NCBI GenBank assembly: GCA_964434055.1
Contig: CAYSSY010000002.1
Span: 16,076 to 69,557, forward strand
Reading direction: 5' to 3'
DNA from: an uncultured Gammaproteobacteria bacterium
GTDB lineage: Bacteria > Patescibacteriota > Patescibacteriia > UBA2196 > CAYSSY01
DNA length: 53,482 bases
In this document: positions 3,112-49,863 of the stretch, one piece after another
Position numbering within the stretch: position 1 is the stretch's first letter
How the letters are laid out: every line of letters begins with the position of its first letter
Notes under the pieces: model-generated
The model's input: the letters and a program-made list of their open reading frames with translations, nothing else
What the model was told of the DNA's origin: nothing
The model's database searches: none
Made by a program: the position numbers and the translations under genes

Positions 3112-3459
3112 TTAATCAAATCTGGGATCTTGCAAAATTTGTGACAAACCGGTTATAAAAATAATGGCATTAACCACTTTTGATAAACTGTTAGCTGCTG
3201 CCAAAACTTCTAGAGATAGTGCTAAGGCTTTGGCCTGAGAACCCAAAAAATCGTGCACTTCATGTAAATCTGGTCTGATAATCAAAGTATCTAGCTTTTT
3301 ACCAAGATTGACACCAATTTCGTAAAAATAAACTAGTGACCCACAGACCGCTTCTAACGGTTCCTTTAATTTCTCCATCAGAGATGCATCAGCGGCGTCA
3401 GCACCTAATATCAGAACCTCTGTCAGATAAATTTTTAAATCAACACTTGATTGATCCAT
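3112..3459 (-). CDS. Hypothetical protein (orphan, 115 aa)
   Basis: Open frame with strong SD GAGGAGG (3464-3470) upstream of the ATG; no recognisable family. Confidence 0.65.
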   Translation of the reverse strand: MDQSSVDLKIYLTEVLILGADAADASLMEKLKEPLEAVCGSLVYFYEIGVNLGKKLDTLIIRPDLHEVHDFLGSQAKALALSLEVLAAANSLSKVVNAIIFITGLSQILQDPRFD

Positions 3460-23981: not shown

Positions 23982-24578
23982 TTAAAAATAATTCTTTATT
24001 TTTCTCAAAAAAATATCTATAGCGCTAGTGATAGTCAACGGGGGTTTTGAAAATTTTATTTTCAGACTATAAAAAGTTATCTCTTGATTTTTTGTTTCAA
24101 GTCCCGGAGAAGAAATAATGAAACGCAAACGCTTATTTTCTAGAACAGCGCCTTGTAGATCAAAAAAAACCTGAGCGTAAGAACGACCACTTTGATCAAC
24201 ATAACCGACGACATCCTTGACCTGCCACGACCAGGCATCCAGAGAATTTCTAACCCCAAGCATTAATGACTGCTCAGGCGGTTTTTTATATTCCAAAAAA
24301 ATTTCTGCTTGTCGAAATGATTGTGGCAATCTCACATCAAAATAAACTGGATCAATAACCATCTTTTGCTGACAAAATGCCTGTTCTTTTTCTATGGGCA
24401 AAACACGTCCATCGGGAGACAAACGTGAGATAAAAGGCGACTCGTTACAAAAATCATAATTTACTGCCAACTTACCTGATGGAATAAGATACCGATAAAA
24501 CAAAAAAACAAATAGTATAACCGGAGCGGCAATAATTATTAATCTAATAACCTTATAAAATTTATCAGTGTTCCTCAT
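23982..24578 (-). CDS. Single-pass membrane protein with extracellular domain
   Basis: N-terminal TM followed by a soluble domain; overlaps the GT-C gene stop. Confidence 0.7.
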   Translation of the reverse strand: MRNTDKFYKVIRLIIIAAPVILFVFLFYRYLIPSGKLAVNYDFCNESPFISRLSPDGRVLPIEKEQAFCQQKMVIDPVYFDVRLPQSFRQAEIFLEYKKPPEQSLMLGVRNSLDAWSWQVKDVVGYVDQSGRSYAQVFFDLQGAVLENKRLRFIISSPGLETKNQEITFYSLKIKFSKPPLTITSAIDIFLRKIKNYF

Positions 24579-26283
24579 TTATTTTCTCTTCACTATTACC
24601 TTTTATTAGCTCTATTTGGTAGAGCCAATCATTTTGAAATATTTTTCGCCCATTTCTAATAGCTAAATTATAAGGCAAAAAGACATTCTGAGAAGTGTAT
24701 TCAACAGCAGCAGGACTTAAAAAAGTATAATAAAAAACATTATTATTTTTAGCAACCAGCCTCGCCAAGCTAAAATAATCATAAGGCACAACTAAGGCGG
24801 TAATCAACCGACTAGTCACAGGAAAAATAAATTTATCAGCTTGCGGGTAAGTAACCACAATACTATCTGGTCTAAGCAACTGCTTTAAAATAAGAGACTT
24901 CTGTTGGTAGCTAAGAACGTTATTTTTTACCACAGACAAACTTTCATCCGTCTCAAAAATAACCAGATTTAAACTGCTTAAAAAAAGAATAATCATTAAA
25001 ACAGAGAAAAGAGAAGCTTTAAAGAAAAAATATTTAAATAGCCTGATAATTTCGTAAATAAAAATAGCAAGCAACGGTAAGGCCAATAAATAAATTGGTA
25101 GCCAGTATCTTAGATATGAGGTGCCGATTGAAACACTGGCCTGGTCAATCCTGTCTGAAATCTGCCAAGAACCGTAAAAAACTAAAAGATAAATTGACAC
25201 AAAAACCAAAACTATCAGGTAGGCAAAATTCTTTTTTCTATTTTCTGCCTTGAAATAGCGACCTGACAACAAAAAGATAATCAAACCGAATAAAGTCGGT
25301 ACTGACCAAAACCATAAAAATTTAACCAAATAATTATAACCATTTAGAATAATGCTTCTGGGGTTAAACCCGAAAGGAGTGACTAGAATTTGAAATAAAG
25401 CATGGCTGGCGATACCCTGAAAAATTCCTTGCCAGCCAGTGTTGTCGAAAGGTAGACGGTAACTAAAAGAAAAGAAGCTATTATATAAAACCAAATTATG
25501 ATAAAAAAGAGGTATTAAAAAAGTGGTTGCCCCAACAATAACAAAAAAAATGAACGGAACCCAGTTAATTTTTTTGAAATTAAAAAAAAGAATTAACAAG
25601 ACTACAATGGTTAGCCAAACCACTTCAGAGGTTCTGATTAAAACAGCCAAGCCCAAAAACAAACCGGCAAAAATATAGTGAAAATACTGAAAAATTTTTC
25701 TTTGACCAAAATTTTTTTTCTCCAAAGCGCTACACAAAAAATATAAACCAACGATTGCCGTAGAAACAAAAAAAATATTGTGATACATGCCACGCGCAGC
25801 ATAATACCACCAACCTGGAAAAAATAAAAGCAACACTGAACTAATAAAAGCTATCTTTTTGTCAAAAAATAATTTTAATAACAAATAAAAAAATAATACG
25901 GCCAGCGAGGCAAAAAATGGTGTTAGAAAAGGAATTACTTGGAGACCAATAATTTTTGCCAGAGCCCCATAAACCAAAACCATGCCCAAGAATGAACCAG
26001 GCACAATTTTACCCTGAAAACCGTTCATGCTCCTTGGATGAAGCAAACCGTTGCCAATCTCATTATCACTTTCCCAAAAATAAAGAGGCATACCATGAGC
26101 AACTCGGCTAGTCCAAAAATAGTTTGCCGTTTCATCAGGCGAATTGAATACCGGACCAACTGATAAATTCTTATGACTGGCTAAAGGAAACCAGGAATAA
26201 ATGACAAAAAAAACAATTGCCAAAAAGACTAAGATTATTATTTCTTTATTTTTTGAAAGGTAGCTATTAAAGTTAAATTTCAT
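24565..26283 (-). CDS. GT-C fold membrane glycosyltransferase (PMT/ArnT-like, GT39/GT83-like)
   Basis: Many TM segments; SPDETANY acidic pair in the first external loop; AVLIRTSE; RYWLPIY. Confidence 0.75.
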   Translation of the reverse strand: MKFNFNSYLSKNKEIIILVFLAIVFFVIYSWFPLASHKNLSVGPVFNSPDETANYFWTSRVAHGMPLYFWESDNEIGNGLLHPRSMNGFQGKIVPGSFLGMVLVYGALAKIIGLQVIPFLTPFFASLAVLFFYLLLKLFFDKKIAFISSVLLLFFPGWWYYAARGMYHNIFFVSTAIVGLYFLCSALEKKNFGQRKIFQYFHYIFAGLFLGLAVLIRTSEVVWLTIVVLLILFFNFKKINWVPFIFFVIVGATTFLIPLFYHNLVLYNSFFSFSYRLPFDNTGWQGIFQGIASHALFQILVTPFGFNPRSIILNGYNYLVKFLWFWSVPTLFGLIIFLLSGRYFKAENRKKNFAYLIVLVFVSIYLLVFYGSWQISDRIDQASVSIGTSYLRYWLPIYLLALPLLAIFIYEIIRLFKYFFFKASLFSVLMIILFLSSLNLVIFETDESLSVVKNNVLSYQQKSLILKQLLRPDSIVVTYPQADKFIFPVTSRLITALVVPYDYFSLARLVAKNNNVFYYTFLSPAAVEYTSQNVFLPYNLAIRNGRKIFQNDWLYQIELIKGNSEEKINEEH

Positions 26284-29850: not shown

Positions 29851-29879
29851 AAAAACGGGCTTTGCTCAGCCCGTTTTTT
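29851..29879. terminator. Bidirectional intrinsic terminator
   Basis: AAAAACGGGCT-ttgctc-AGCCCGTTTTT between convergent genes. Confidence 0.85.
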
Positions 29880-29902
29880 TGTTTTAAAAAATTGAAGCAA
29901 TA

Positions 29903-31474
29903 CTATTTCTTCGGTAAAAAAAATTTTTTAAAAACCTCAATCTCCGGTGATTTTAAATAATAAGTTAAAATAACATAGGTTAAAAGACCCAAACCGCCAG
30001 CAAACAACCCTTGTATTAACACACCCCAAAAGGTAGTCATATCAACAAAAAAAGAAAAAAATGGCTTAGCGATCTGAGTTACTAAAGCAGCCACTAAGGT
30101 AGCGAGACTAATCTTAATGACTGAAGCGAGAATTTGTTTCTCATCTAAATAACCAGCTCTCTGTCTTAAAATAATGAAAAGTAGAAGAACGTTAATAATA
30201 CTGGCAATGGAAAAAGCCAAAGCTAAGCCCTCAACACCAAATTTTTTCGTCAAAAAAAGTGATAAAATTAAATTTAAAATTAATGTAATTAGACTGATGA
30301 AAAAAGGAGTCTTGGTATCGTGTCGAGCGTAAAAAGCACGTGTAAAAATCGGCTGCACCCCTTGGGCAAAGAGAGATAAACAAAAAAATCCCAACGAATC
30401 AGCGGTTAAGATGGTGTCAGTCCAATCAAAATTACCAGCACCGAGAGTAACACGTACTATCTGAGCACGTAATAAAATTATTATGGCACTTAAGGGAATA
30501 ATTAGATAAAGCACCCGCCGAGTCGCCACTGAAAACTGAATCATATACCCCTCTTGATCGCCAGCACTATAACTTTCAGAGAAAGCCGGAAAAGCAGCGA
30601 GTGCTATTGAAATTGCAAAAATACCAATAGGAAAACTTTGCAAATTAAAAGCAAAATTAAATATGGCAAGAGAGCCTGCAGCCAAAGTTGAAGCAATAAT
30701 AGTTATAACAATCTGGTTAATCTGATTAATACCTAAAGCTACGGTGCGCGGCAACATTAACTTAATTACTTGTTTAACTTCTGGTAAATGCCAATTAAAG
30801 TGTCGGGACCAAAAAAAACCAGCCGCCATAATTGGTGGCACTTGAATCATCAAATGAAAAAAAGCTCCTAAAACTACCCCCCAAGCCAAACCAATGATCC
30901 CCAAAGGTTTAACCAAAAAAATAATTCCAAAAATTATGCCAAGATTATACATAATCGGTGCCAGGGAAAAAACAGCAAATTTCTTTAAAGAGTTTAAAAC
31001 ACCGCTAAAAACATTGCTAATACCAAAAAAAATAATGCTTAAAAGCATGATCCGTGTCAGTTTAACTGTTAGCTCAATTTTTTCCTGACTAAATCCTGGA
31101 GCAATTATTACCATCAGCTGACTAGCACCAAAAAAACATACCACCCCTAAAATTATTAAAACCAAAGTTAAAATATTTATAATGCCAGAAGCCAATTGCC
31201 AGGCTTTATGTCTTTCAGTCTCTGCTTGCCAAAGTTGAACAAAAACCGGAATAAAAGCCGCTGATAATGCGCCCAAAACAAGAGTGTTGAAAATTAAATC
31301 TGGCAGTTTAAAAGCGGCAAAATAAACATCAAGAATGTCTCCGGCGCCGAAATGCGAGGCCAGTAACCGATCACGAATTAAACCTAAAAAACGGGAAATA
31401 ATACTTAAAGCAGCAATTATGACTGCACCGCCGCCAATTGTCGTTTTTAATTTTTTAGATATTACCTGATACAT
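29903..31474 (-). CDS. murJ: Lipid II flippase MurJ (MviN)
   Basis: SRFLGLIRDRLLASHFG, AAFKLPDLIF, AAFIPVF, QSFPIGIF, RAFYARHDTKTP. Confidence 0.94.
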   Translation of the reverse strand: MYQVISKKLKTTIGGGAVIIAALSIISRFLGLIRDRLLASHFGAGDILDVYFAAFKLPDLIFNTLVLGALSAAFIPVFVQLWQAETERHKAWQLASGIINILTLVLIILGVVCFFGASQLMVIIAPGFSQEKIELTVKLTRIMLLSIIFFGISNVFSGVLNSLKKFAVFSLAPIMYNLGIIFGIIFLVKPLGIIGLAWGVVLGAFFHLMIQVPPIMAAGFFWSRHFNWHLPEVKQVIKLMLPRTVALGINQINQIVITIIASTLAAGSLAIFNFAFNLQSFPIGIFAISIALAAFPAFSESYSAGDQEGYMIQFSVATRRVLYLIIPLSAIIILLRAQIVRVTLGAGNFDWTDTILTADSLGFFCLSLFAQGVQPIFTRAFYARHDTKTPFFISLITLILNLILSLFLTKKFGVEGLALAFSIASIINVLLLFIILRQRAGYLDEKQILASVIKISLATLVAALVTQIAKPFFSFFVDMTTFWGVLIQGLFAGGLGLLTYVILTYYLKSPEIEVFKKFFLPKK

Positions 31475-31512
31475 TAATTTAATTCTATCATTTAACTTAA
31501 AATTTAAAAAGC

Positions 31513-31764
31513 AAAAAAAACCGGTAGGCTGCCGATTCTTGTCACCGAGTCTTAGACCATCACTTTAAATGATAATATAAGTATTGGGCGACTATCCAAA
31601 GTTTAAAGGGATAATGTTTTGAAGAGAAGAGAGATTTTGATTTTTTTACCTGTTATCGATGAAGAAAACAGGATTTGTTTATCTCCTCTAAACTCGTTTA
31701 AACCGGCAGCCTACCGGCTTCTCCTATTTTTAGGCAGAGCGCGCTTGATTGTGGTCTTTGATCT
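31513..31764 (-). ncRNA. Candidate structured non-coding RNA, unit 1 (~250 nt)
   Basis: Consensus promoter upstream; 14-bp closing stem 31521-31534/31704-31717 followed by T8 on the minus strand; internal stems with G-U pairs on the minus strand; no ORF or known family recognised. Confidence 0.6.
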
Positions 31765-31770
31765 TACTTA

Positions 31771-31798
31771 ATTATACTATTTTTTTAAAAATTGTCAA
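31771..31798 (-). promoter_or_regulatory. Sigma70-type promoter for RNA unit 1
   Basis: TTGACA (31793-31798), 16-nt spacer, TATAAT (31771-31776). Confidence 0.75.
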
Positions 31799-31858
31799 TT
31801 CTATTAAGATTTTATACAATATTAATACTGACCAATCAATTAAAACGCTAAACCTTTA

Positions 31859-32289
31859 TTAAGGAAAAATTTGGAGGTTAATCCGAAGTAAATTTAAAAA
31901 AATTTAGCTTCGATCCCCCAAAGACGAATCTTTAGTAGTGTCACTAAAAATTGTGACACGGTATTAAAGAGTTTCGTTGGTTATAAACGCACGGGGTACA
32001 TTATTCCCAACCTTAAGTCGCTTTAAAAAAGCAACGATCGGGAACGAGCACTATTTAGTCAAGAACAGACCAGTAAGGACCGGTCAAGGTGTCTTGATTA
32101 AAAAACAAGCGCCTAACCTCCAAATTTTTCCTTAAAAACACAAAAAGCAGCTTAAAGAGAAATATCTAAAGCCGCTTTTTGTGTTAGGTGTTAAGACAAA
32201 TATCTGTTTTATCTCGACACCTAAAAATTTAAGGCAAATCTCTCTTCGTTGAAATAAATATTTAAATTATTTTTTCAAAATTAATTTAA
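31859..32289 (-). ncRNA. Candidate structured non-coding RNA, unit 2 (~430 nt)
   Basis: Perfect promoter upstream; two 5' hairpins (32137-32185, 32185-32223); perfect 22-bp stem 31859-31880/32114-32135 enclosing a multibranch domain; no ORF. Confidence 0.6.
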
Positions 32290-32295
32290 CTGCTT

Positions 32296-32324
32296 ATTAT
32301 ACTCCTGTTAAACAAACTTGTCAA
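32296..32324 (-). promoter_or_regulatory. Sigma70-type promoter for RNA unit 2
   Basis: TTGACA (32319-32324), 17-nt spacer, TATAAT (32296-32301). Confidence 0.8.
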
Positions 32325-32387
32325 GTCAAATGCTAATTAATTTTATTTATAATTAGCAAAAAAGAGCTAATTTATTTAAAAAAAGCC

Positions 32388-32416
32388 TTGACAAATCCTA
32401 AAAAAAGACTTATAAT
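32388..32416 (+). promoter_or_regulatory. Sigma70-type promoter for the DUF11 adhesin gene
   Basis: TTGACA (32388-32393), 17-nt spacer, TATAAT (32411-32416). Confidence 0.8.
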
Positions 32417-32545
32417 AGCAAGTTAATAATTAAACTTTAATATAGAGAAGAGAGTTTGAGAATTAACTGTAAATTTCAAAAACTCTCATCTTTAAAAAAA
32501 GGGAGTTTTATTTTTTATCAATTTTGATAACTTAAAATTAAATAT

Positions 32546-35509
32546 ATGAAAAAATCTCAAAAAATATTTATTATTCTAGCTTTATCTTTAATTATAGCTA
32601 TTGTGTCTGTAAAAGATGTTTCTGCAACATCCAATCTCTGCGAAATAAACGCAGCTATAAATTATTCAGGGACGGATTATGTGAGTGTCTGCGCTTTTCA
32701 TAGTACCTGTCCTCAAGAAAGACTTAACGCAGCAACTGTTAATGTCTCTACAGCTGGCAACTACGAAGTCGAGGCTTATGTTTGGTACAACAGTGGTGAT
32801 GAACAAAAAAATGAAAGTTATTTTTTAGTTGTCAAAAACGCTAATGGCAATAAATCTTATCCTCTGGACGCTAATGCCGGCAAATATAAAGTAATCGCTG
32901 ATGATCCGGGCGATCCCCATGGTGCCACTCGCAAATCAGGAGTCTTTTATTTTGACCAAGGCATAAATACTATTGAACTTCATCATTATATCCAAATAGC
33001 CAGTCAGTATCCGGCCTATGTTGTGGCAGGACCAATTACCGGGCCAGAAAGTGTAAAAATTAAATCTTTAAAAATTAAATGCACTGTAACAGACCCGTGC
33101 ATAAATAACCACAAACCGGTTGCTAATGCCGGTTCTGATCAAACTGTCTTTTTGGGTGATACCGTTCAATTTGACGGCTCGCTGTCTAGCGATGCTGACG
33201 GTGACCAATTAACTTTTAAGTGGTATCTTGATAACGGTGCGGTTTTAGACGGCGACAAAGCTAGTTATGCAAATTTTGCCTTAGGCACACGTTATGTTAC
33301 CCTAACAGTTAATGATCAATGTAACTTGGTCCAAGACTACGTTTTAGTGCACGTCAATCCGAAAACCATAAATATAGTCAGCGATAAATTAGTTTCCGAC
33401 AATGATGAGATAAAAACTCACAGTAATACTTCTCGGCCAGGTGAGGAAATAATCTACACTTTAAAGATTGAGAATAAAAATTCTACCGCTATAAAAAATA
33501 TTCGACTGGAAGATAATTATGATCAAAACTATCTGATTGTTTTAAATCCAGATGGCGGTAGTGATAATGGTGATAAAATCAGTTGGCAACTTGGCGATCT
33601 TTCTTCTGGCGCTGTTGTCGAAAAAACAGTCAGAATGAAAATAAAAGATTCGATTACCAACAACCTAAACTTTAAAAACTACCTCTCTTGTCAGACAGAT
33701 AACGCTGGTAGCTGCGCTAATGAGGTAACTACTCAAGTGGTCTTACCGAATGTACCAGCTGAACTTTTTATCAGCAAAAGCGTTTCTGATAACAATGAAT
33801 CAAAAGTGGCTAACAATGTTGCTGAACGTAATGAATTATTAACTTATTACTTACGAGCTGAGAATCGAAGCCAGACGACAATAAAAAATTTGAGAATTGA
33901 AGATGATTATGATCAAAATTATACTGAAGTTATCTCATGGGAAACTGGCGGTAGTCATAATGGTGACAAAATTTCCTGGTCATTAGGAGATTTAGCACCC
34001 TATAGTGCTGTGGAAAAAACTATGATTGTGCGCGTTAAAGGTGATGTTGCTGATGAAACAAATTTTAAAAACTTTTTGCGTTCATATGCTGATAATGTCA
34101 GCTCTCAACAAAAAGAAGTCACAACCAGAATTGATGTTGTTAATCAAGATCAAGTTACATTGGCTCTCGATAAGACTGTTTCCGATAGTGATGAAACCAA
34201 TAAAGACTATACAAGTTCTCACAAAAATGAAGTTTTAACTTACCGCTTAGATTATCATGTTAATGGTCGCGGAATTGCCCGCAATGTTGTCCTGCGTGAT
34301 GATTATGACCAGCGCTATGTGCGTATTATTTCCACTGACGGCGGTTCAAACAATGGTAATGAGATTGTTTGGCAGTTGGGCAACCTGGAATCGGGTTACC
34401 ACACCACCCGTTATGTGACTGTCCAGATTGTTAATGATTTTGACAATAGCCTGGAAATAAGTAATTGGGCTTATTTAAGAGCTGATAACGCACCGGCCGT
34501 TGAAGACCGGGTCAGAACAAACATTGAAGGCAATATAGACAATCAAAATGCTTATTTAAATATTGTCAAAACTGTTTTTGACAATGACGAAAACGAAGTT
34601 CATCGCAACTCGGCTAATGTTGGCGAACAGTTGACTTATAAAATAAAAATTTCTAATAACTCCACAATGGTTGCCCAAAACGTCATTTTAACTGATGATT
34701 ATGATCAGAATAAAATTGTCATTATTTCCTTTACTGGCAATGCTAATGACAACGGTGACCAACTATCTTGGTCGATTGGAAATCTCGATCCAGGCAGGAC
34801 CGCTGAACGGTTTATAACCGCCAAAGTGAAAGAAAATCTGAGCGGTAATCCAATAGTCATTAATAACGTGGCTAAAGTTACCGGCAGTAATATTCAGACC
34901 ATGTCAGACCAAACTGTCACTACTGTAATTGCCAAACCAGAACTAAACGTCACCAAGACTGTCAGTGACAATGATGAATTCGATAGCCATAATAATACTG
35001 CTGAACCATTAGAAACATTACTGTATACTATAACTGTTGAAAATACTGGTTTAACAACTTTAGAAAATGTCGTGGTGATTGATAATTATGATGAGCGCTA
35101 TCTTAAAATTATTTCGACTGATAGTGGTACTGACGACGGACATGTTATTCGTTGGCAAATCAACAGTTTAAAAGCAGGTGAACAAACTACTAGAGTTTTA
35201 ACCGTTCAATTGAATGACCAGGTTAGAAATGGCCTAAACGTTCTTAATCGTGTGACAGCTACTGCAAACAATGTTAACCCTGATAATGATAGTACTTTAA
35301 CTTCTGTTTATATTCCCGGTGTTACAATAACCGCAACCTCAACTACTCCATATGCCCCGCGGACTGGTGCTGGTTTAATTTTTCCGGCTTTAGGCGGCCT
35401 GTCAGCTGGTTCACTCGCTGGTTTATCTTCATTCGCTTATCTTAAGAAAAAGAAAAAAGCCAAAAAAAATGATAATATTACAACTTCAATCAGATTTAAC
35501 CCGGCCTAA
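32546..35509 (+). CDS. Large secreted surface protein: PKD domain, five DUF11-like repeats, C-terminal sortase-type sorting signal
   Basis: Signal peptide; PKD (PVANAGSDQTV..FDGSLSSD); five ~130-aa repeats K-x-V-S-D-x-D-E...D-D/N-Y-D; APRTG + hydrophobic segment + KKKKKAKK. Confidence 0.85.
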   Translation: MKKSQKIFIILALSLIIAIVSVKDVSATSNLCEINAAINYSGTDYVSVCAFHSTCPQERLNAATVNVSTAGNYEVEAYVWYNSGDEQKNESYFLVVKNANGNKSYPLDANAGKYKVIADDPGDPHGATRKSGVFYFDQGINTIELHHYIQIASQYPAYVVAGPITGPESVKIKSLKIKCTVTDPCINNHKPVANAGSDQTVFLGDTVQFDGSLSSDADGDQLTFKWYLDNGAVLDGDKASYANFALGTRYVTLTVNDQCNLVQDYVLVHVNPKTINIVSDKLVSDNDEIKTHSNTSRPGEEIIYTLKIENKNSTAIKNIRLEDNYDQNYLIVLNPDGGSDNGDKISWQLGDLSSGAVVEKTVRMKIKDSITNNLNFKNYLSCQTDNAGSCANEVTTQVVLPNVPAELFISKSVSDNNESKVANNVAERNELLTYYLRAENRSQTTIKNLRIEDDYDQNYTEVISWETGGSHNGDKISWSLGDLAPYSAVEKTMIVRVKGDVADETNFKNFLRSYADNVSSQQKEVTTRIDVVNQDQVTLALDKTVSDSDETNKDYTSSHKNEVLTYRLDYHVNGRGIARNVVLRDDYDQRYVRIISTDGGSNNGNEIVWQLGNLESGYHTTRYVTVQIVNDFDNSLEISNWAYLRADNAPAVEDRVRTNIEGNIDNQNAYLNIVKTVFDNDENEVHRNSANVGEQLTYKIKISNNSTMVAQNVILTDDYDQNKIVIISFTGNANDNGDQLSWSIGNLDPGRTAERFITAKVKENLSGNPIVINNVAKVTGSNIQTMSDQTVTTVIAKPELNVTKTVSDNDEFDSHNNTAEPLETLLYTITVENTGLTTLENVVVIDNYDERYLKIISTDSGTDDGHVIRWQINSLKAGEQTTRVLTVQLNDQVRNGLNVLNRVTATANNVNPDNDSTLTSVYIPGVTITATSTTPYAPRTGAGLIFPALGGLSAGSLAGLSSFAYLKKKKKAKKNDNITTSIRFNPA

Positions 35510-35530
35510 AATATTCGTTGATAAAGAAAT

Positions 35531-36361
35531 ATGAACGGTAATCCTTATAATACTAACCAACTTGATGTTAAAAAAAGCAGCAAAAGAGCAATTGTTTTAT
35601 CATTAATAACTTTTGCCATTGTTTCTTTTGGCGCTGGTGTGACCATCTTTGCCTTACAGCAAAAAAACATTCAAGACAATAAATTATTGGCACTAAATTA
35701 TAGTTCTCCCATTAGTGGCATGGTTCTGGGAGCAAAAACAAATGTTAATCAAACTGTAAAAATTGCCGTTTATTCAAAAGAACTTGATCCTGATCAGGAT
35801 GGTTTGAATAATAAAATGGAAGAAATTTTAGGAACTGACCCGAACAATCCTGATACTGACAAAGACGGCAAAAAAGATGGCTATGAAATGAATGTTGGCG
35901 ATGATCCAACATCATTGGGAAAAATAAATACTTCAATTAATATCCCAAAAATAAAAATAACCGCACCGGTTATTTGGTCAGCTTCAACCGACGAAGCCAG
36001 TATTCAAAAAGACCTGCAAAAGGGAGTTATCCATTATCCAGGAACTTCTATGCCTGGTCAAACTGGTAATTCATTTATAACTGGCCATTCTTCTGACTAC
36101 AGTTGGACCAAAGGAAATTACAAAAATATTTTTAGTAATCTCCATAAACTTAATGTGGGTGATTCGGTAAAAATTGAATATAATCTACACAACGGACGAC
36201 GCATCACTTATGAATACAAAATAATTTCAGAAGACATAGTAATGCCGAACGACAGCCGTTTATTTGAAAAAACCAATAAGAAAATCTTGACCTTGGTCAC
36301 TTGTTGGCCGCTCAACTCGAGCTGGAAACGATTAATGTTTAAAGCGGTGCTGGTGGAATAA
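35531..36361 (+). CDS. Sortase with N-terminal TM and DxDxDG calcium-binding repeats
   Basis: GVIHYPGT..PGQTGNSFITGHS (His), LTLVTCWP (Cys), KRLMFKA (Arg); DPDQDG and DTDKDG repeats. Confidence 0.9.
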   Translation: MNGNPYNTNQLDVKKSSKRAIVLSLITFAIVSFGAGVTIFALQQKNIQDNKLLALNYSSPISGMVLGAKTNVNQTVKIAVYSKELDPDQDGLNNKMEEILGTDPNNPDTDKDGKKDGYEMNVGDDPTSLGKINTSINIPKIKITAPVIWSASTDEASIQKDLQKGVIHYPGTSMPGQTGNSFITGHSSDYSWTKGNYKNIFSNLHKLNVGDSVKIEYNLHNGRRITYEYKIISEDIVMPNDSRLFEKTNKKILTLVTCWPLNSSWKRLMFKAVLVE

Positions 36362-36375
36362 AAAAAATAATTAAA

Positions 36376-36405
36376 AAAATACCCTACTAAAAAGTAGGGT
36401 ATTTT
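36376..36405. terminator. Bidirectional intrinsic terminator
   Basis: AAAATACCCTACT-aaaa-AGTAGGGTATTTT between the sortase and L,D-transpeptidase genes. Confidence 0.88.
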
Positions 36406-36415
36406 GATTAATCAA

Positions 36416-37813
36416 TTAATTACTAACGAAAACTGGCGTACCAACAACAACCCAATCATAAAGTTCTTCAGCAGCTACAAGTGATAATCTGACACAGCCG
36501 TGTGAAACACGCTGACCTAAATGATTAGCACCTTCATAAACAATTTTTTTACCATTTTTCCAATAAGGCAGACCGTGAATGCCGGCACCTCCCCAGGTAA
36601 AACCCAACCAGTGAGGCATATAAAGATTATATGCCCGGGAATAAGCAACCTCAATTTTATTTAAAATTTTAAATTCTCCAATTGGAGTCGGCATGCTTTT
36701 TTTACCACTGGAAACAATTTGCTCATTTATCAGATAACCATTCTGATAATAGCGCAATTTCTGTTCTGATATATCAACTGCTATATATTTCTCTATTTTT
36801 TTTTCAGCAGTCTTTATTCTCTCCTGAGCCACAACTAACTCTAACTTTCTGTCGCCGTCAATATCGCCAACAATAGTCTGCAAGCCACCTTGATAATCTT
36901 TTTCAAAAGGCTTAAGTTCCCGCACCACTTTTTTACTGCTCAAATTAACAAATAATAAAAGCGGCTCTGACAGTAAACCACCGGAAACAATTATTTCTTT
37001 ATCCTGACCATTGTTATAAAATGAAAAATTAATTTCTTTGGATTTAAATTGATCAAACGACAATTCCCAAATATTTCTGCCCGAATACTGGTAAGCCTGT
37101 ATAACCGGACGCCCTAATTTAAAACCACTAATAAATATTTCATTTTTTTTGTCAGAATCAAAATCAAAAATTTGAATTTGTTTTATTACTGTTAGCCCAT
37201 CAAGAGATAATTCTTGATTTAACTGTCCGAGCAAATTAAAAATTCTTATCTTGCTCGGTGCACTACGTTGCCAGACAATAATTTCCGGCTTATTATCATT
37301 ATCAACATCACCGGCAGTAACTCTGATCCCGGAAAGGTCTTTCTTGTCTCCACTAAAAAAACCGGGGTTAATTTTCATTTTCCCAAAACCATCTAAAATC
37401 CTAACATGCGGTCCGCCGCCCTCACCTGCCCCGACCACCAACTCGCTTTTCTTATCATTATCAAAATCAGCCGTTGTTAAACTGACTCCACCAAAAAAAT
37501 TCTCATTATAAACTAAATATTCATTAATCAGATTTCCATAACCATCAAAAATTTTTAACCAAGGCTGCCCGCCGGTACCGTTAGTCAAAACTATTTCCTG
37601 TTGTCCGTCACCGCCTAAATCGACTAATGAAAAATTAATCTGACGCGCTTTGTCACCAATATCAGCAACTTTAAAAATTCGTTCTGTTGTTAATTTCTCA
37701 TAATCTAAAACTTTTAACAGATATTGCTGACTACTATCTTGAGCAATAACACTGTCCGCACTGCTTAAAAAAAATAGAGAACTGACAATACTAATAAAAT
37801 AAAAATATTTCAT
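36416..37813 (-). CDS. L,D-transpeptidase (YkuD) with N-terminal FG-GAP/VCBS repeats
   Basis: Signal peptide; DxDxDGxxE repeats with GAGEGGGPHVRI; YIAVDISEQ, TPIGEF, GIHG, SHGCVRL. Confidence 0.9.
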   Translation of the reverse strand: MKYFYFISIVSSLFFLSSADSVIAQDSSQQYLLKVLDYEKLTTERIFKVADIGDKARQINFSLVDLGGDGQQEIVLTNGTGGQPWLKIFDGYGNLINEYLVYNENFFGGVSLTTADFDNDKKSELVVGAGEGGGPHVRILDGFGKMKINPGFFSGDKKDLSGIRVTAGDVDNDNKPEIIVWQRSAPSKIRIFNLLGQLNQELSLDGLTVIKQIQIFDFDSDKKNEIFISGFKLGRPVIQAYQYSGRNIWELSFDQFKSKEINFSFYNNGQDKEIIVSGGLLSEPLLLFVNLSSKKVVRELKPFEKDYQGGLQTIVGDIDGDRKLELVVAQERIKTAEKKIEKYIAVDISEQKLRYYQNGYLINEQIVSSGKKSMPTPIGEFKILNKIEVAYSRAYNLYMPHWLGFTWGGAGIHGLPYWKNGKKIVYEGANHLGQRVSHGCVRLSLVAAEELYDWVVVGTPVFVSN

Positions 37814-47348: not shown

Positions 47349-48464
47349 TTAATCAATTTTAGAAAATTTTGAAATATTTATAATTAAGCCAATGGCGGCC
47401 ATTGAAATAAACAACGCCGTACCGCCATAACTAATTAAAGGCAAAGGCAAGCCGGTTAATGGTAACAAACCAATCATCGCGCCAATATTGATAAAAGCTT
47501 GCCCGCCAAACCAAACCATAATACCACTAACTACCAAACGACTGAATTCATCTGGCGCTGCCCGAGCGATTCGCATACCCCGATAAAAAAAATAACCAAA
47601 GACACCAATAAAAAACAAAGTTCCTAAAAAACCAAGCTCTTCTGCCATAATCGCAAAAATTGAATCTCCATAAACCTCGGGAAGATATTCATATTTCTGA
47701 CGAGAGCGACCAAAACCTAACCCTAGCCACCCGCCAGAACCAATCGCCAAAAGCGCTTGGGTTATATGATAACCTTTACCTTGGGGATCCAACGAAGGAT
47801 TACGAAATATTAACAGTCTATTCAAACGATAAGGAGCAATTTTTATTAAAGCAAAAATGCCAGCCAATCCCATCAATATTAAACTTAAAAGGTAATGCCA
47901 TTTGGCCCCGCCCAATAAATACATCCCGAAAGCAATCAATGCAACAACGGTCATAGTCCCTACATCAGGCTGTAGTGCGATCAGTATCAAAATTAAAATA
48001 ATAATTATTAAAAAAGGTAAAAAACCATGAACAAGATTTGTCGTTCTTTCTTTTTTTTCTACTAACCAAGCAGCAAGATAAATAATCAAACTCAATTTAA
48101 CAATTTCAGATGGCTGAAACGTATAATTACTTACTTTAATCCAACTGTGGGCATGTGTGCCTGATTTAAAACCAATACCAGGAACAAAAACCAAAATCAA
48201 CAGACAAACAGTTAATAAAAAAAATAAACTTGCCCGTCGGCGCCAAAAATTATAATTAATTCTGGAAAAAATAAACAAAAGAACTAAACCTGGTAAAAAA
48301 CCATATAATATTTGATGGGTCAAATAATAATAACTCGAGCCTTTTCTTTCAAAACCAACAACTGACGACGCAGAGGATAAAATTATTAAACCAAAAACAA
48401 TAAAAACAATAGAAACTGTCAAAAATTTGTAATCAATTTGTCCGTTTTTTTTATTTAACTTCAT
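47349..48464 (-). CDS. ftsW: Cell division SEDS protein FtsW
   Basis: FQPSEIVK, QPDVG, GYHITQALLAIGSGG, YLPEVYGDSIF, TGLPLPLISYGG; in mraY-murD-ftsW order. Confidence 0.92.
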   Translation of the reverse strand: MKLNKKNGQIDYKFLTVSIVFIVFGLIILSSASSVVGFERKGSSYYYLTHQILYGFLPGLVLLFIFSRINYNFWRRRASLFFLLTVCLLILVFVPGIGFKSGTHAHSWIKVSNYTFQPSEIVKLSLIIYLAAWLVEKKERTTNLVHGFLPFLIIIILILILIALQPDVGTMTVVALIAFGMYLLGGAKWHYLLSLILMGLAGIFALIKIAPYRLNRLLIFRNPSLDPQGKGYHITQALLAIGSGGWLGLGFGRSRQKYEYLPEVYGDSIFAIMAEELGFLGTLFFIGVFGYFFYRGMRIARAAPDEFSRLVVSGIMVWFGGQAFINIGAMIGLLPLTGLPLPLISYGGTALFISMAAIGLIINISKFSKID

Positions 48465-49863
48465 TATTGTTTTGTTTCATATTATTAACGGCATTTTTAA
48501 ACTGTTCACCTCGATCACGATAGTTTTTAAAAATTCCAAAAGAAGCACAAGCTGGCGAAAGTAAAACACTTTCTCCGGCTTGAGCAAGCTCAGAAGCTAA
48601 GGTAACGGCTGCAGACATATCCACGACCTGATTAAAATGTTGACCGCTTTTTTCCATTAAAGCAGCAATTCTTGACGACGCAGCACCGGGCAATAAAACT
48701 ACCCCCGTTATATCATCAAGCTTCAATCTCTCTACCAAGGCAGTAAAATCAGAATTTTTTTCCGAACCGCCGAGAATAATAACTTTTCGGTTAGTTAAAC
48801 CATTTAACGATAAAATTGTCGCTGTCGGTACTGTAGCGGCTGAATCATTATAATAACTAACGTCTTTAACAGAACCAACATCTTCTAAATGATGAGGAAG
48901 TCCTGAAAAACTTTTAATTATCTTGATTATTGCTTCCATGCCCGCACCAGCTAAATAACTAGTAATACTAGCAGCGCAGACATTTTCCCAATTATGACGT
49001 CCGAGTAGCGGAATCTCGCTAATTTTTGCTAACAAAAATTCGCCTGCAGGAACTTTAATTTTTATTTGATCCTGATCAATAAAAGCTCCCCGCCCAACTC
49101 TTTCTAGTCCCGAAAAATAATAAACCTGGGCTTGCGATTCTTGAGCTAATTGTTTAGTTAATTTATTAGAAAAATTAGTAATCGTAAAATTTTGTCGGTT
49201 TTGATACTTAATAATGTTTTTTTTAGCATTAATATATTCAGCAAAATTCTTATGGAAATTTGGATTTTTGGGATCTGCCGCTTTTAAATGTTCCTCAAAA
49301 ATGTTAGTAACCACGGCAATTTGTGGACTCTTTTCAAAATCTTCAAGTTGAAAACTGGAAAGTTCTAAAACAATTAATGATGTCGTAGAAAGCTGATTTA
49401 AAAAATCAAAAGGAGCTATGCCAATATTGCCACCTAAGTAAACATCCTTACCAGCTTCTTTCAATATTTGAAAAATTAGCGTCGCCGTAGTTCCCTTTCC
49501 TTTTGAACCAGTCACACCGATTATCTTTCCTGGGCACAGATCAAAAAAAAGACGCATCGCCGAACTAATAATTACTCCAGACTCTTTAGCTTCTTTAAGT
49601 TCCTCGAGATGAAGCGGCACGCCGGGAGAACGAAATAAAATTTGGTATTGATTTAAATCAGCTAAATAATCAACACCACTAACTAAATTCACTTTTTTTA
49701 TTTTATTAAGACTCTCTAACCTATCACTAATACTATCCTTATCACGCTCTAAAATAGTTATCTCTTCTAATCCCTGATTCAATAAAAATCTGGCTAAGGA
49801 GACATTTTCAATCCCTAAGCCCAAAAAAGCAATTTTTTTATCTTTAAAATAATTAAGGTTCAT
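48451..49863 (-). CDS. murD: UDP-N-acetylmuramoyl-L-alanine--D-glutamate ligase
   Basis: FRSPGV, GVTGSKGKGTT, GGNIG, ELSSFQL, YYNDSAAT, LSPACASF..NYRDRG. Confidence 0.95.
   Translation of the reverse strand: MNLNYFKDKKIAFLGLGIENVSLARFLLNQGLEEITILERDKDSISDRLESLNKIKKVNLVSGVDYLADLNQYQILFRSPGVPLHLEELKEAKESGVIISSAMRLFFDLCPGKIIGVTGSKGKGTTATLIFQILKEAGKDVYLGGNIGIAPFDFLNQLSTTSLIVLELSSFQLEDFEKSPQIAVVTNIFEEHLKAADPKNPNFHKNFAEYINAKKNIIKYQNRQNFTITNFSNKLTKQLAQESQAQVYYFSGLERVGRGAFIDQDQIKIKVPAGEFLLAKISEIPLLGRHNWENVCAASITSYLAGAGMEAIIKIIKSFSGLPHHLEDVGSVKDVSYYNDSAATVPTATILSLNGLTNRKVIILGGSEKNSDFTALVERLKLDDITGVVLLPGAASSRIAALMEKSGQHFNQVVDMSAAVTLASELAQAGESVLLSPACASFGIFKNYRDRGEQFKNAVNNMKQNNNEVK

What the first reader, a model, noticed from the sequence alone, without database searches (positions are those of the whole stretch)
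31859..32289. RNA unit 2: perfect 22-bp closing stem enclosing a multibranch domain, preceded by two long hairpins
TTAAGGAAAAATTTGGAGGTTA (31859-31880) is the exact reverse complement of 32114-32135. Inside, on the minus strand: TCAAGA/TCTTGA around GACC/GGTC; GTTCCC/GGGAAT around GTTGCT/AGCGAC; CCCC/GGGG around an arm ending in GTGTCAC/GTGACAC; and CGAAG(C)TAAATTT/AAATTTACTTCG. Upstream lie AACACAAAAAGCGGC/GCTGCTTTTTGTGTT (32137-32185) and TAGGTGT/ACACCTA (32185-32223). The closing stem buries an SD-like GGAGGT, but no credible ORF follows. The layout of long terminal inverted repeats around stem-loops recalls retron a1/a2 arms or a MITE, but no reverse transcriptase or transposase is in the window.
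Basis: partly seen in the sequence, partly recalled or inferred. Interest (0 to 1): 0.8.

Follow-up and report, generated by a model that had tools for sequence, protein, structure and literature searches.

The report
Orphan structured RNA gene candidate
A non-coding stretch in an uncultured Patescibacteria genome, closed by a perfect 22-bp stem and sitting behind a textbook promoter, most likely encodes a highly folded RNA of unknown function that matches no known RNA family and has no detectable relatives, so it is a plausible but unproven new RNA gene.

Summary
Bases 31859-31880 are the exact reverse complement of 32114-32135. This is the longest perfect inverted repeat in the window (next longest 14 bp; simulated windows reach 12-15 bp).

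Several results favour a minus-strand RNA. A 12/12 sigma-70 consensus promoter (32324->32296) lies upstream. Only four such promoters exist in 53 kb, and one starts exactly at the RNase P RNA. Folding is better on the minus strand (z -11.1 against -8.6). There are 13 G·U pairs against 3-5 A·C positions. The interior is 39% G+C, like RNase P RNA, while the flanks are 16-27%. No ORF is present.

The element is not in Rfam. No reverse transcriptase, transposase or integrase gene is in the window. The stem sequence occurs as a pair only at this same locus among 241 million metagenome records, so the retron and MITE ideas get no support.

No diverged homologue could be found (closest relative: MurJ 73% identical, on a 2.4-kb contig). 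There is therefore no covariation test and no clue to function. My best guess is a stable RNA cut out at the 22-bp duplex by RNase III. Interest is moderate.

The parts
32296..32324 (-). Sigma-70 promoter TTGACA-17 nt-TATAAT (12/12 consensus). The inferred transcription start is about 32290.
   Evidence: Only four 12/12 promoters occur in the window. One of them (11486->11459) ends 7-9 nt before the 5' end of the RNase P RNA.
32224..32290 (-). AU-rich 5' leader (16% G+C). It contains GAAGAGAGAUUUG and only weak local pairing.
32186..32222 (-). Hairpin A: AGGUGU/ACACCU plus GAGAUAAA/UUUGUCUU. Its two G·U pairs would be A·C mismatches on the plus strand.
   Evidence: P 0.96-0.99.
32137..32185 (-). 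Hairpin B: 17-bp stem (one G·U), 15-nt loop, followed by UUUUUGUGUUUUU. It has the layout of an intrinsic, bidirectional terminator.
   Evidence: Compare the genome's compact terminators at 36376-36405 and 29855-29880.
32114..32135 (-). 5' arm of closing stem P1 (UUAAGGAAAAAUUUGGAGGUUA).
   Evidence: P 0.98; 22 Watson-Crick pairs, no G·U.
32047..32113 (-). Branch P2: GGCGCU/AGUGCU base, UCAAGA/UCUUGA, and GACCGGU-CCUU-ACUGGUC tip.
32003..32045 (-). Branch P3: a 10-bp stem plus an 8-bp stem with 4 G·U pairs. On the plus strand only 5 contiguous pairs of the outer stem survive.
31986..32002 (-). Small hairpin P4 (AAUGUAC/GUGCGUU, P 0.78).
31918..31980 (-). Branch P5: CCA.ACGAA / UUCGU..UGG, UCUUUA/UAAAGA, and GUGUCAC-loop-GUGACAC. 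The loop length differs by 1 nt between haplotypes.
31884..31912 (-). Branch P6: CGAAG(C)UAAAUUU / AAAUUUACUUCG. The loop length differs by 1 nt between haplotypes.
31859..31880 (-). 3' arm of closing stem P1 (UAACCUCCAAAUUUUUCCUUAA).
31847..31854 (-). Possible pairing partner (GGUUUAGC) of the transcript's first 8 nt (32290-32283). It would pair the termini of a roughly 444-nt RNA. This is tentative: 3 of the 8 pairs are G·U.
   Evidence: P 0.94. Significance was only roughly estimated.

Best explanation
The region is a single-copy, lineage-specific gene for a highly structured non-coding RNA, transcribed from the minus strand of a Patescibacteria (CPR) chromosome.

Transcription starts near 32290 from a perfect sigma-70 promoter. 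It passes a short AU-rich leader, hairpin A and the terminator-like hairpin B. It then produces a 277-nt domain in which a 22-bp fully Watson-Crick duplex (P1) closes a five-way junction (P2-P6).

I infer that the long perfect duplex is recognised as double-stranded RNA. The most likely reader is RNase III, which would release and/or clamp a stable multibranch RNA of about 230-260 nt that acts in trans, probably bound to protein. No terminator follows P1, so read-through would continue into the neighbouring RNA gene (unit 1) and murJ. The RNase P RNA gene of the same window is likewise followed directly by the next gene.

Shown here: the sequence features, the strand preference, the promoter, the absence of coding capacity, single-copy status, and absence from known families. 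Inferred: that it is transcribed, the RNase III processing, and trans action. The biological role is unknown.
For: 1. The 22-bp perfect inverted repeat is real and far beyond chance.
2. The domain is strongly structured even without P1: z = -6.3 on the minus strand.
3. A 12/12 consensus promoter lies upstream on the minus strand. Only four exist in 53 kb. One is placed exactly at the 5' end of the RNase P RNA, which shows that such promoters drive stable-RNA genes in this organism.
4. Strand asymmetry favours the minus strand. MFE is -146.4 (minus) against -126.5 kcal/mol (plus) over 31859-32223. There are 13 G·U pairs on the minus strand, against 3 A·C juxtapositions in the same helices, or 5 G·U pairs in the plus strand's own fold (binomial p about 0.01-0.05). 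P3, P2b, hairpin A and hairpin B all lose pairs on the plus strand.
5. The interior is 39.1% G+C, close to RNase P RNA (40.6%), while adjacent spacers are 16-27%. Long G+C-rich intergenic regions are an established predictor of structured RNAs (PMC8723152, PMC6429828).
6. There is no ORF, and SD sequences are almost unused in this genome.
7. Two haplotypes from four assemblies differ within the unit-2 transcript only in two hairpin loops and one unpaired position.
8. The context is ordinary chromosomal housekeeping genes, with no mobile-element genes.
Against: - There is no covariation evidence. The only other copies are nearly identical. Relatives with MurJ 42-58% identical have a different, short intergenic region and no match by BLAST, nhmmer or covariance model.
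- No expression data were available.
- Hairpin B looks like a terminator placed before the domain, and no terminator follows the domain.
- The hairpin loops are low-complexity U/A runs that vary in length, unlike the conserved tertiary-contact loops of many functional RNAs.
- P1 has no G·U pair, although the other helices are about 11% G·U (13 G·U among the 119 non-P1 pairs; my own estimate gives P about 0.08 for none in 22 pairs). That would also fit a DNA-level terminal inverted repeat.
- The minus strand is generally G+T rich, which explains a small part of the G·U excess.
Confidence: 0.55

Rival explanations
1. The 277-bp element is a non-autonomous foldback or MITE-like insertion, with a 22-bp (or 18-bp plus TTAA) terminal inverted repeat. 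It landed in a TTAA just after the terminator (hairpin B) of a small RNA gene. Its RNA structure would be incidental or only secondarily used.
For: - The terminal inverted repeat is perfect, with no G·U pairs, and has TTAA at both ends. Its size is typical for a MITE.
- Removing the element and keeping one TTAA leaves hairpin B followed by a continuous U-rich tail, i.e. a normal terminator.
- Relatives with MurJ 42-58% identical do not have this intergenic region.
- From my own knowledge: IS5-family elements duplicate YTAR targets and often begin with GG.
Against: - There is one copy in 53 kb.
- A scan of 241 million metagenome records for the 18-nt arm core found both arms only at this same locus. 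The 76 other hits are single, unrelated sequences without a partner arm. Viral contigs gave nothing.
- No transposase is in the window.
- TTAA is palindromic, so it cannot be told apart from the repeat itself.
- The interior consists of several independent local hairpins with a G·U bias on one strand and an RNase-P-like G+C content. It is not a whole-length palindrome, which is not what a decaying DNA element predicts.
Confidence: 0.17
2. Units 2 and 1 together form a long structured 5' leader of murJ, about 815 nt from the upstream promoter. In this cis-regulatory view, hairpin B and the unit-1 stem plus U8 act as regulated terminators.
For: - Both promoters, both units and murJ lie on the same strand with no gene between them.
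- Unit 1 ends in a strong stem plus U8 terminator about 40 nt before the murJ ATG.
- No terminator follows unit 2.
Against: - No riboswitch, T-box or leader family matches even at E<10.
- No antiterminator alternative to hairpin B was evident on inspection.
- murJ in relatives has a short upstream region behind CTP synthase and no such leader.
- murJ has its own -10-like TAGAAT 7 nt before the ATG.
Confidence: 0.12
3. The domain is read from the plus strand. Transcription would start from TTGTCA-17-TACAAT (31792-31820) and stop at hairpin B acting in the plus direction. The perfect minus-strand promoter would then make only a roughly 155-nt small RNA ending at the same bidirectional terminator.
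For: - This gives a tidy promoter-domain-terminator layout on the plus strand.
- The plus-strand fold is also significant: z = -8.6 overall and -4.7 for the interior.
Against: - The promoter scores only 10/12, and its -35 element is the mirror image of the minus-strand TTGACAA.
- P3, P2b, hairpin A and hairpin B all acquire A·C mismatches on the plus strand. MFE is 13-20 kcal/mol worse and the z-scores are weaker.
Confidence: 0.08
4. The region is a retron-type msr/msd template whose a1/a2 arms are the 22-bp repeat.
For: Only the superficial layout supports this: long inverted repeats flanking stem-loops.
Against: - No reverse transcriptase is present anywhere in the 53-kb window. The flanking genes are murJ and a DUF11/PKD surface protein with a sortase.
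- No Rfam retron or group II intron model matches.
Confidence: 0.01

Closest known systems
Stable housekeeping RNA genes with a terminal closing helix (RNase P RNA of this same window, 11017-11450)
   Same: - Both have a perfect TTGACA/TATAAT promoter.
- Both form a G+C island of about 40% in an AT-rich genome.
- In both, the ends pair in a closing helix around a multibranch core.
- Neither has a terminator of its own before the next gene.
   Different: - Unit 2 matches no RNase P model or any other Rfam model.
- Its closing helix is 22 perfect pairs, against about 13 in RNase P RNA.
- Two hairpins lie between the promoter and the domain.
- No homologues are known, whereas RNase P RNA is universal.
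RNase III-matured stable RNAs (16S/23S rRNA precursor stems; Bacillus subtilis scRNA precursor). This comparison rests on my own knowledge.
   Same: A long, fully paired duplex formed by sequences flanking a structured RNA. At 20 bp or more it is long enough to be an RNase III substrate.
   Different: Cleavage was not tested here. No rnc gene was seen, because only 53 kb of the genome is available. The enclosed RNA is not rRNA or SRP RNA.
Bacterial MITEs and foldback elements (e.g. Correia elements, IS5-derived MITEs). This comparison rests on my own knowledge.
   Same: Size of 100-400 bp, terminal inverted repeats of about 20-26 bp, TA/TTAA ends, intergenic location, and a stable RNA fold when transcribed.
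   Different: - Single copy here, with no second copy in the metagenome collection.
- No parent IS was found.
- The interior is a set of local hairpins biased to one strand, not a whole-length palindrome.
Retron msr/msd non-coding RNA
   Same: Inverted repeats (a1/a2) bracketing stem-loops.
   Different: No RT gene is adjacent or anywhere in the window. The arms here directly close the domain, rather than flanking separate msr and msd parts.
Y RNA / YrlA-type RNAs
   Same: The 5' and 3' ends form a long stem that closes a branched module.
   Different: No Rfam Y_RNA match at E<10. No Ro60 (TROVE) or RtcB gene is in the window. Unit 2 is more than twice as long, and no T-loop-like motif was seen on inspection.

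Membership tests
Any Rfam 15 family (4227 covariance models) | Score at or above the family's gathering threshold, or at least a credible sub-threshold match. | tested here: not met
   At gathering thresholds, only RNase P is found in the whole window. At E<=10, on 1.4-kb and 296-nt slices, only noise hits appear (miRNA, snoRNA, CRISPR direct repeats; 27 bits or less against thresholds of 33-82).
Retron | A reverse transcriptase gene adjacent to the non-coding RNA. | tested here: not met
   Pfam scans of all 41 ORFs of 100 aa or more found no RVT domain. The neighbours are murJ and a DUF11/PKD protein.
Retron | a1/a2 inverted repeats flanking msr and msd, with a branching G. | tested here: inconclusive
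   An inverted repeat is present. It closes one domain, however, and no msr/msd partition or priming G can be assigned without an RT or homologues.
MITE / non-autonomous IS derivative | Terminal inverted repeats. | tested here: met
   A 22-bp perfect repeat at the ends of a 277-bp unit.
MITE / non-autonomous IS derivative | Multiple copies in the genome or population. | tested here: not met
   One copy in the window. The metagenome scan found both arms only at the same locus. Caveat: the whole genome of the organism was not available.
MITE / non-autonomous IS derivative | Target-site duplication and an empty site in a relative. | tested here: inconclusive
   TTAA at both ends is palindromic and is part of the repeat. 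The closest relative's contig stops 76 nt upstream of murJ. More distant relatives have a different gene order.
MITE / non-autonomous IS derivative | A related autonomous element with the same ends. | tested here: not met
   No transposase is in the window. None of the 76 other arm-core hits has a partner arm or any interior similarity.
Structured non-coding RNA gene (generic) | Promoter, strand-specific structure and no coding potential. | tested here: met
   promoter; structure and strand; no ORF.
Structured non-coding RNA gene (generic) | Compensatory base changes among homologues. | not testable with these tools
   Only near-identical copies exist: 4 differences in 1071 nt, none in a stem of unit 2. 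No diverged homologue was found.
RNase III substrate | An uninterrupted duplex of about 20 bp or more. | tested here: met
   22 contiguous Watson-Crick pairs, P 0.98.
RNase III substrate | Actual cleavage, and presence of rnc in the genome. | not testable with these tools
   This needs transcript-end mapping or an in vitro assay. Only 53 kb of the genome was seen.
Riboswitch / cis-regulatory leader | A conserved aptamer with a competing terminator/antiterminator upstream of a regulated gene. | tested here: not met
   No aptamer family matches. murJ in relatives lacks the leader. No antiterminator for hairpin B was seen on inspection.

The most novel reading that the evidence does not exclude
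Unit 2, possibly together with neighbouring unit 1, is a previously undescribed family of abundant, RNase III-excised structured RNAs. It would be specific to a sparsely sampled Patescibacteria lineage, driven by the same class of perfect promoter as RNase P RNA, and would act in trans (for example as a protein scaffold) in an organism with a minimal genome.
Probability: 0.3. Interest if true: 0.6.

Novelty: new member of a known kind. Interest (0 to 1): 0.4.

Why it matters
CPR/Patescibacteria genomes are tiny and densely packed. A 1-kb intergenic region that carries three of the window's four perfect promoters and two large structured domains is therefore unlikely to be idle. If unit 2 is a real stable RNA, it would add a lineage-specific RNA gene to organisms whose non-coding repertoire is almost unknown. 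Its 22-bp perfect terminal duplex would make it a clean case for studying RNase III-type maturation outside rRNA. If it turns out to be a solitary MITE-like insertion, it is ordinary. The finding is only as strong as single-sequence evidence allows.

Tried and rejected
1. Rfam at gathering and permissive thresholds on three slices: nothing relevant.
2. tRNA/tmRNA scan: none. Manual checks for a tmRNA tag or T-arm, the SRP helix-8 motif, the 6S rod shape and the hammerhead core: none seen.
3. Orthologous loci through MurJ:
   - 28 GTDB loci and a 5.8-billion-protein search.
   - The closest relative is 73% identical, on a 2.4-kb contig that ends 76 nt upstream of murJ.
   - Relatives at 42-58% identity carry CTP synthase upstream and no element.
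4. DUF11 protein as an anchor: the full-length search was swamped by PKD repeats, and the N-terminal 187 aa returned nothing.
5. Attempt to extend the source contig through its end genes: only short contigs exist.
6. DNA pattern scans:
   - Arm core in viral contigs (1 chance hit) and in metagenomes (self plus 76 unrelated single hits).
   - Two interior patterns in viral contigs: none.
   - Phage BLAST: only AT-rich noise.
7. Covariance model R1 of unit 2 against the window and 27 CPR loci: it finds only itself, so unit 1 is not a detectable paralogue.
8. Six-frame translation for pseudogene remnants: none.
9. RNA-RNA duplex prediction between units 1 and 2 and the DUF11 leader: not better than shuffles, so the idea of a base-pairing network was dropped.
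10. A 20-bp inverted repeat in locus L011: an unrelated GC-rich element.
11. Origin or terminus of replication: the cumulative GC skew is monotonic across the window.

Full report
**What is there**

The window is a chromosomal segment of an uncultured Patescibacteria (CPR) bacterium with about 35% G+C.
- MurJ finds its best GTDB relatives (up to 51% identity) among Patescibacteria and Moranbacteria MAGs.
- All 41 ORFs of 100 aa or more that have a Pfam match (33 of the 41) are housekeeping genes for the cell envelope, translation or pili. Examples are MraY, MurD, FtsW, MurJ, RF-1, SerRS, S9, L25 and a type IV pilus ATPase.
- None of them is a reverse transcriptase, transposase or integrase.

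The finding lies in the longest intergenic region of the window, 31475-32545 (1071 nt). This region separates murJ (29903-31474, minus strand) from a DUF11/PKD surface-protein gene with a sortase (32546-36361, plus strand).

**Checking the observation**

The 22-mer at 31859-31880 is the exact reverse complement of 32114-32135.
- It is the longest perfect inverted repeat with a gap of 500 nt or less in the window.
- The next longest is 14 bp, and 40 Markov-simulated windows reached only 12-15 bp.

The CCCC/GGGG pair is replaced in the MFE structure by a small hairpin plus CCA/UGG, and remains an alternative.

The result is a five-way junction (P2-P6) closed by P1. Two hairpins precede it: A at 32222-32186 and B at 32185-32137.

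The fold is far better than that of shuffled sequence:

| Segment | Minus strand z | Plus strand z |
|---|---|---|
| Whole domain | -11.1 | -8.6 |
| Interior without P1 | -6.3 | -4.7 |

**Which strand, and is it a gene?**

Four independent observations point to a minus-strand RNA.

1. Promoter. A scan for near-perfect sigma-70 promoters finds only four 12/12 matches in 53 kb.
   - One (11486->11459, minus) ends 7-9 nt before the 5' end of the RNase P RNA that Rfam detects at 11450-11017. In this organism, then, such promoters mark stable-RNA genes.
   - The other three all lie in this one intergenic region: 32324->32296 (minus, upstream of unit 2), 31798->31771 (minus, upstream of unit 1) and 32388-32416 (plus, upstream of the DUF11 gene).
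2. Wobble pairs. Over 31859-32223 the minus-strand fold has 13 G·U pairs. Only 3 juxtaposed A·C positions in the same helices would be G·U on the plus strand. The plus strand's own fold has 5 G·U pairs and is 20 kcal/mol weaker. P3, the tip of P2, hairpin A and hairpin B each lose pairs on the plus strand. The minus strand is slightly G+T rich throughout the window, but that bias is too small to give 13:3.
3. Composition. The domain interior is 39.1% G+C, like RNase P RNA (40.6%). The leader, the spacers and the DUF11 leader are 16-27%. Long G+C-rich intergenic regions are the criterion used in published searches for structured RNAs (PMC8723152, PMC6429828).
4. No coding potential. All six frames are broken by stop codons. 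The 'SD-like' GGAGG in P1 is unlikely to be a ribosome-binding site, because only 1 of 41 genes here has an SD sequence.

**Comparative evidence, and why it is missing**

Three other assemblies (Logan, ENA, JGI) carry an identical MurJ and the same intergenic region.
- They differ from the window at four positions.
- Within the unit-2 transcript these are two 1-nt length changes in the loops of P5 and P6, and one unpaired base 5' of hairpin A.
- This is compatible with the structure but too little to test it.

The next relative has MurJ 73% identical, and its contig ends 76 nt upstream of murJ.

At 42-58% identity murJ sits behind CTP synthase with a short spacer. BLAST, nhmmer and a covariance model built from unit 2 all find nothing in those loci.

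The model does not hit unit 1 either, so the two units are not detectable paralogues.

Retron: there is no RT in the window, and no retron or group II intron model matches. I regard this as excluded.

MITE: the element does have terminal inverted repeats and TTAA ends. However:
- It is single-copy in the window.
- An exact scan of 241 million metagenome records for the 18-nt arm core returned 77 loci. Only one, the JGI contig of this same locus, has both arms. The other 76 have no partner arm (15 or fewer of 22 matches within 600 nt) and no interior similarity. They are mostly ribosome-binding-site-like or coding sequences of unrelated bacteria.
- Viral contigs and phage genomes gave nothing.

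The MITE idea is therefore unsupported, but not excluded, for three reasons. The organism's complete genome was not available. P1 has no G·U pair, although the other helices are about 11% G·U (my estimate: P about 0.08 for none in 22 pairs). And deleting the element while keeping one TTAA would leave hairpin B followed by an uninterrupted U-rich tail.

**How it probably works**

Hairpin B has the A-tract/stem/T-tract design of this genome's bidirectional terminators (36376-36405 and 29855-29880), but with a 15-nt loop. Its only non-Watson-Crick pair is G·U on the minus strand. No terminator follows P1.

The RNase P RNA gene also lacks a terminator and runs straight into the next gene.

My best reading is that transcription from about 32290 partly reads through hairpin B, makes the domain, and continues towards unit 1 and murJ. 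The 22-bp perfect duplex would then serve as a double-strand-specific processing or clamping site. RNase III is the obvious candidate, as in rRNA and B. subtilis scRNA precursors (my own knowledge). Cleavage there would release a stable branched RNA.

The first 8 nt of the transcript can also pair with 31854-31847, which would bring together the termini of a roughly 444-nt species. This is weak evidence. The function of the RNA cannot be inferred, and nothing in the loops suggests a known protein- or ligand-binding motif.

**Verdict**

The RNA interpretation is the best-supported reading (about 0.55). The rivals are a solitary MITE-like insertion (about 0.17), a long murJ leader (about 0.12) and a plus-strand RNA (about 0.08).

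The element belongs to no described family. Without homologues or expression data it remains an orphan candidate of moderate interest. The decisive tests are read mapping from the source metatranscriptomes and a structure-aware search of much larger sequence collections.

Noticed in passing
window 31505-31798 (minus strand): 'Unit 1' is a second structured domain with its own 12/12 promoter (31798->31771). A closing stem of about 33 bp (core CCGGUAGGCUGCCGG, 7 G·U pairs in its extensions) encloses a multi-helix junction (three inner helices in the MFE fold). It ends in U8, a strong terminator about 40 nt before the murJ ATG. z = -7.8 on the minus strand. It has no Rfam match and is not hit by the unit-2 covariance model.
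   Followed up: partly
window 32388-32545 (plus strand): A third 12/12 promoter (32388-32416) drives a roughly 123-nt leader of the DUF11/PKD surface-protein gene. The leader has a long hairpin (32443-32494) that overlaps an alternative stem (AAAACUCUC/GGGAGUUUU) followed by a U-run. This looks like an attenuator, or a separate small RNA of about 95 nt.
   Followed up: partly
window 11004-11486 (minus strand): The RNase P RNA (class A, 149 bits) starts right at a perfect promoter and has no terminator. The mechanically listed ORF 9607-11034 overlaps its 3' end, so the real start codon is probably the ATG at 11004, only about 13 nt after the P1 helix of RNase P RNA. This suggests co-transcription of rnpB with a sugar-transferase gene.
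   Followed up: partly
whole window, 45 nt upstream of 41 ORFs: Only one gene (3112-3459) has a Shine-Dalgarno sequence. Several genes carry a -10-like hexamer 5-8 nt before the ATG: murJ, the DUF11 gene, and the ORFs at 24565-26283, 36416-37813 and 48451-49863. This hints at widespread leaderless mRNAs in this lineage. It was not tested against chance in AT-rich sequence.
   Followed up: no
window 31623-31643 (+), 32444-32464 (+), 32249-32236 (-): The purine motif GAAGAGAG(A)UUUG occurs three times in the intergenic region. Unit 1 RNA contains its complement (AAAUCUCUCUUCUCU), so unit 1 could pair with the unit-2 leader (12 nt) and the DUF11 leader (11 nt). Duplex energies were not better than those of shuffled controls.
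   Followed up: partly
window 32155-32167 and 32193-32205: The loop of hairpin B and the inner arm of hairpin A share a 13-nt direct repeat (AAGAGAAATATCT / AAGACAAATATCT). This suggests either a local duplication or an alternative pairing between the two hairpins.
   Followed up: no
L011 5656-5799: A MAG related at 42% MurJ identity has a 20-bp perfect inverted repeat (CGCATGTAACCCCTCACACC) that closes a 104-nt GC-rich interior just downstream of murJ. It is unrelated in sequence to unit 2 and is probably a repeat element of that genome.
   Followed up: no
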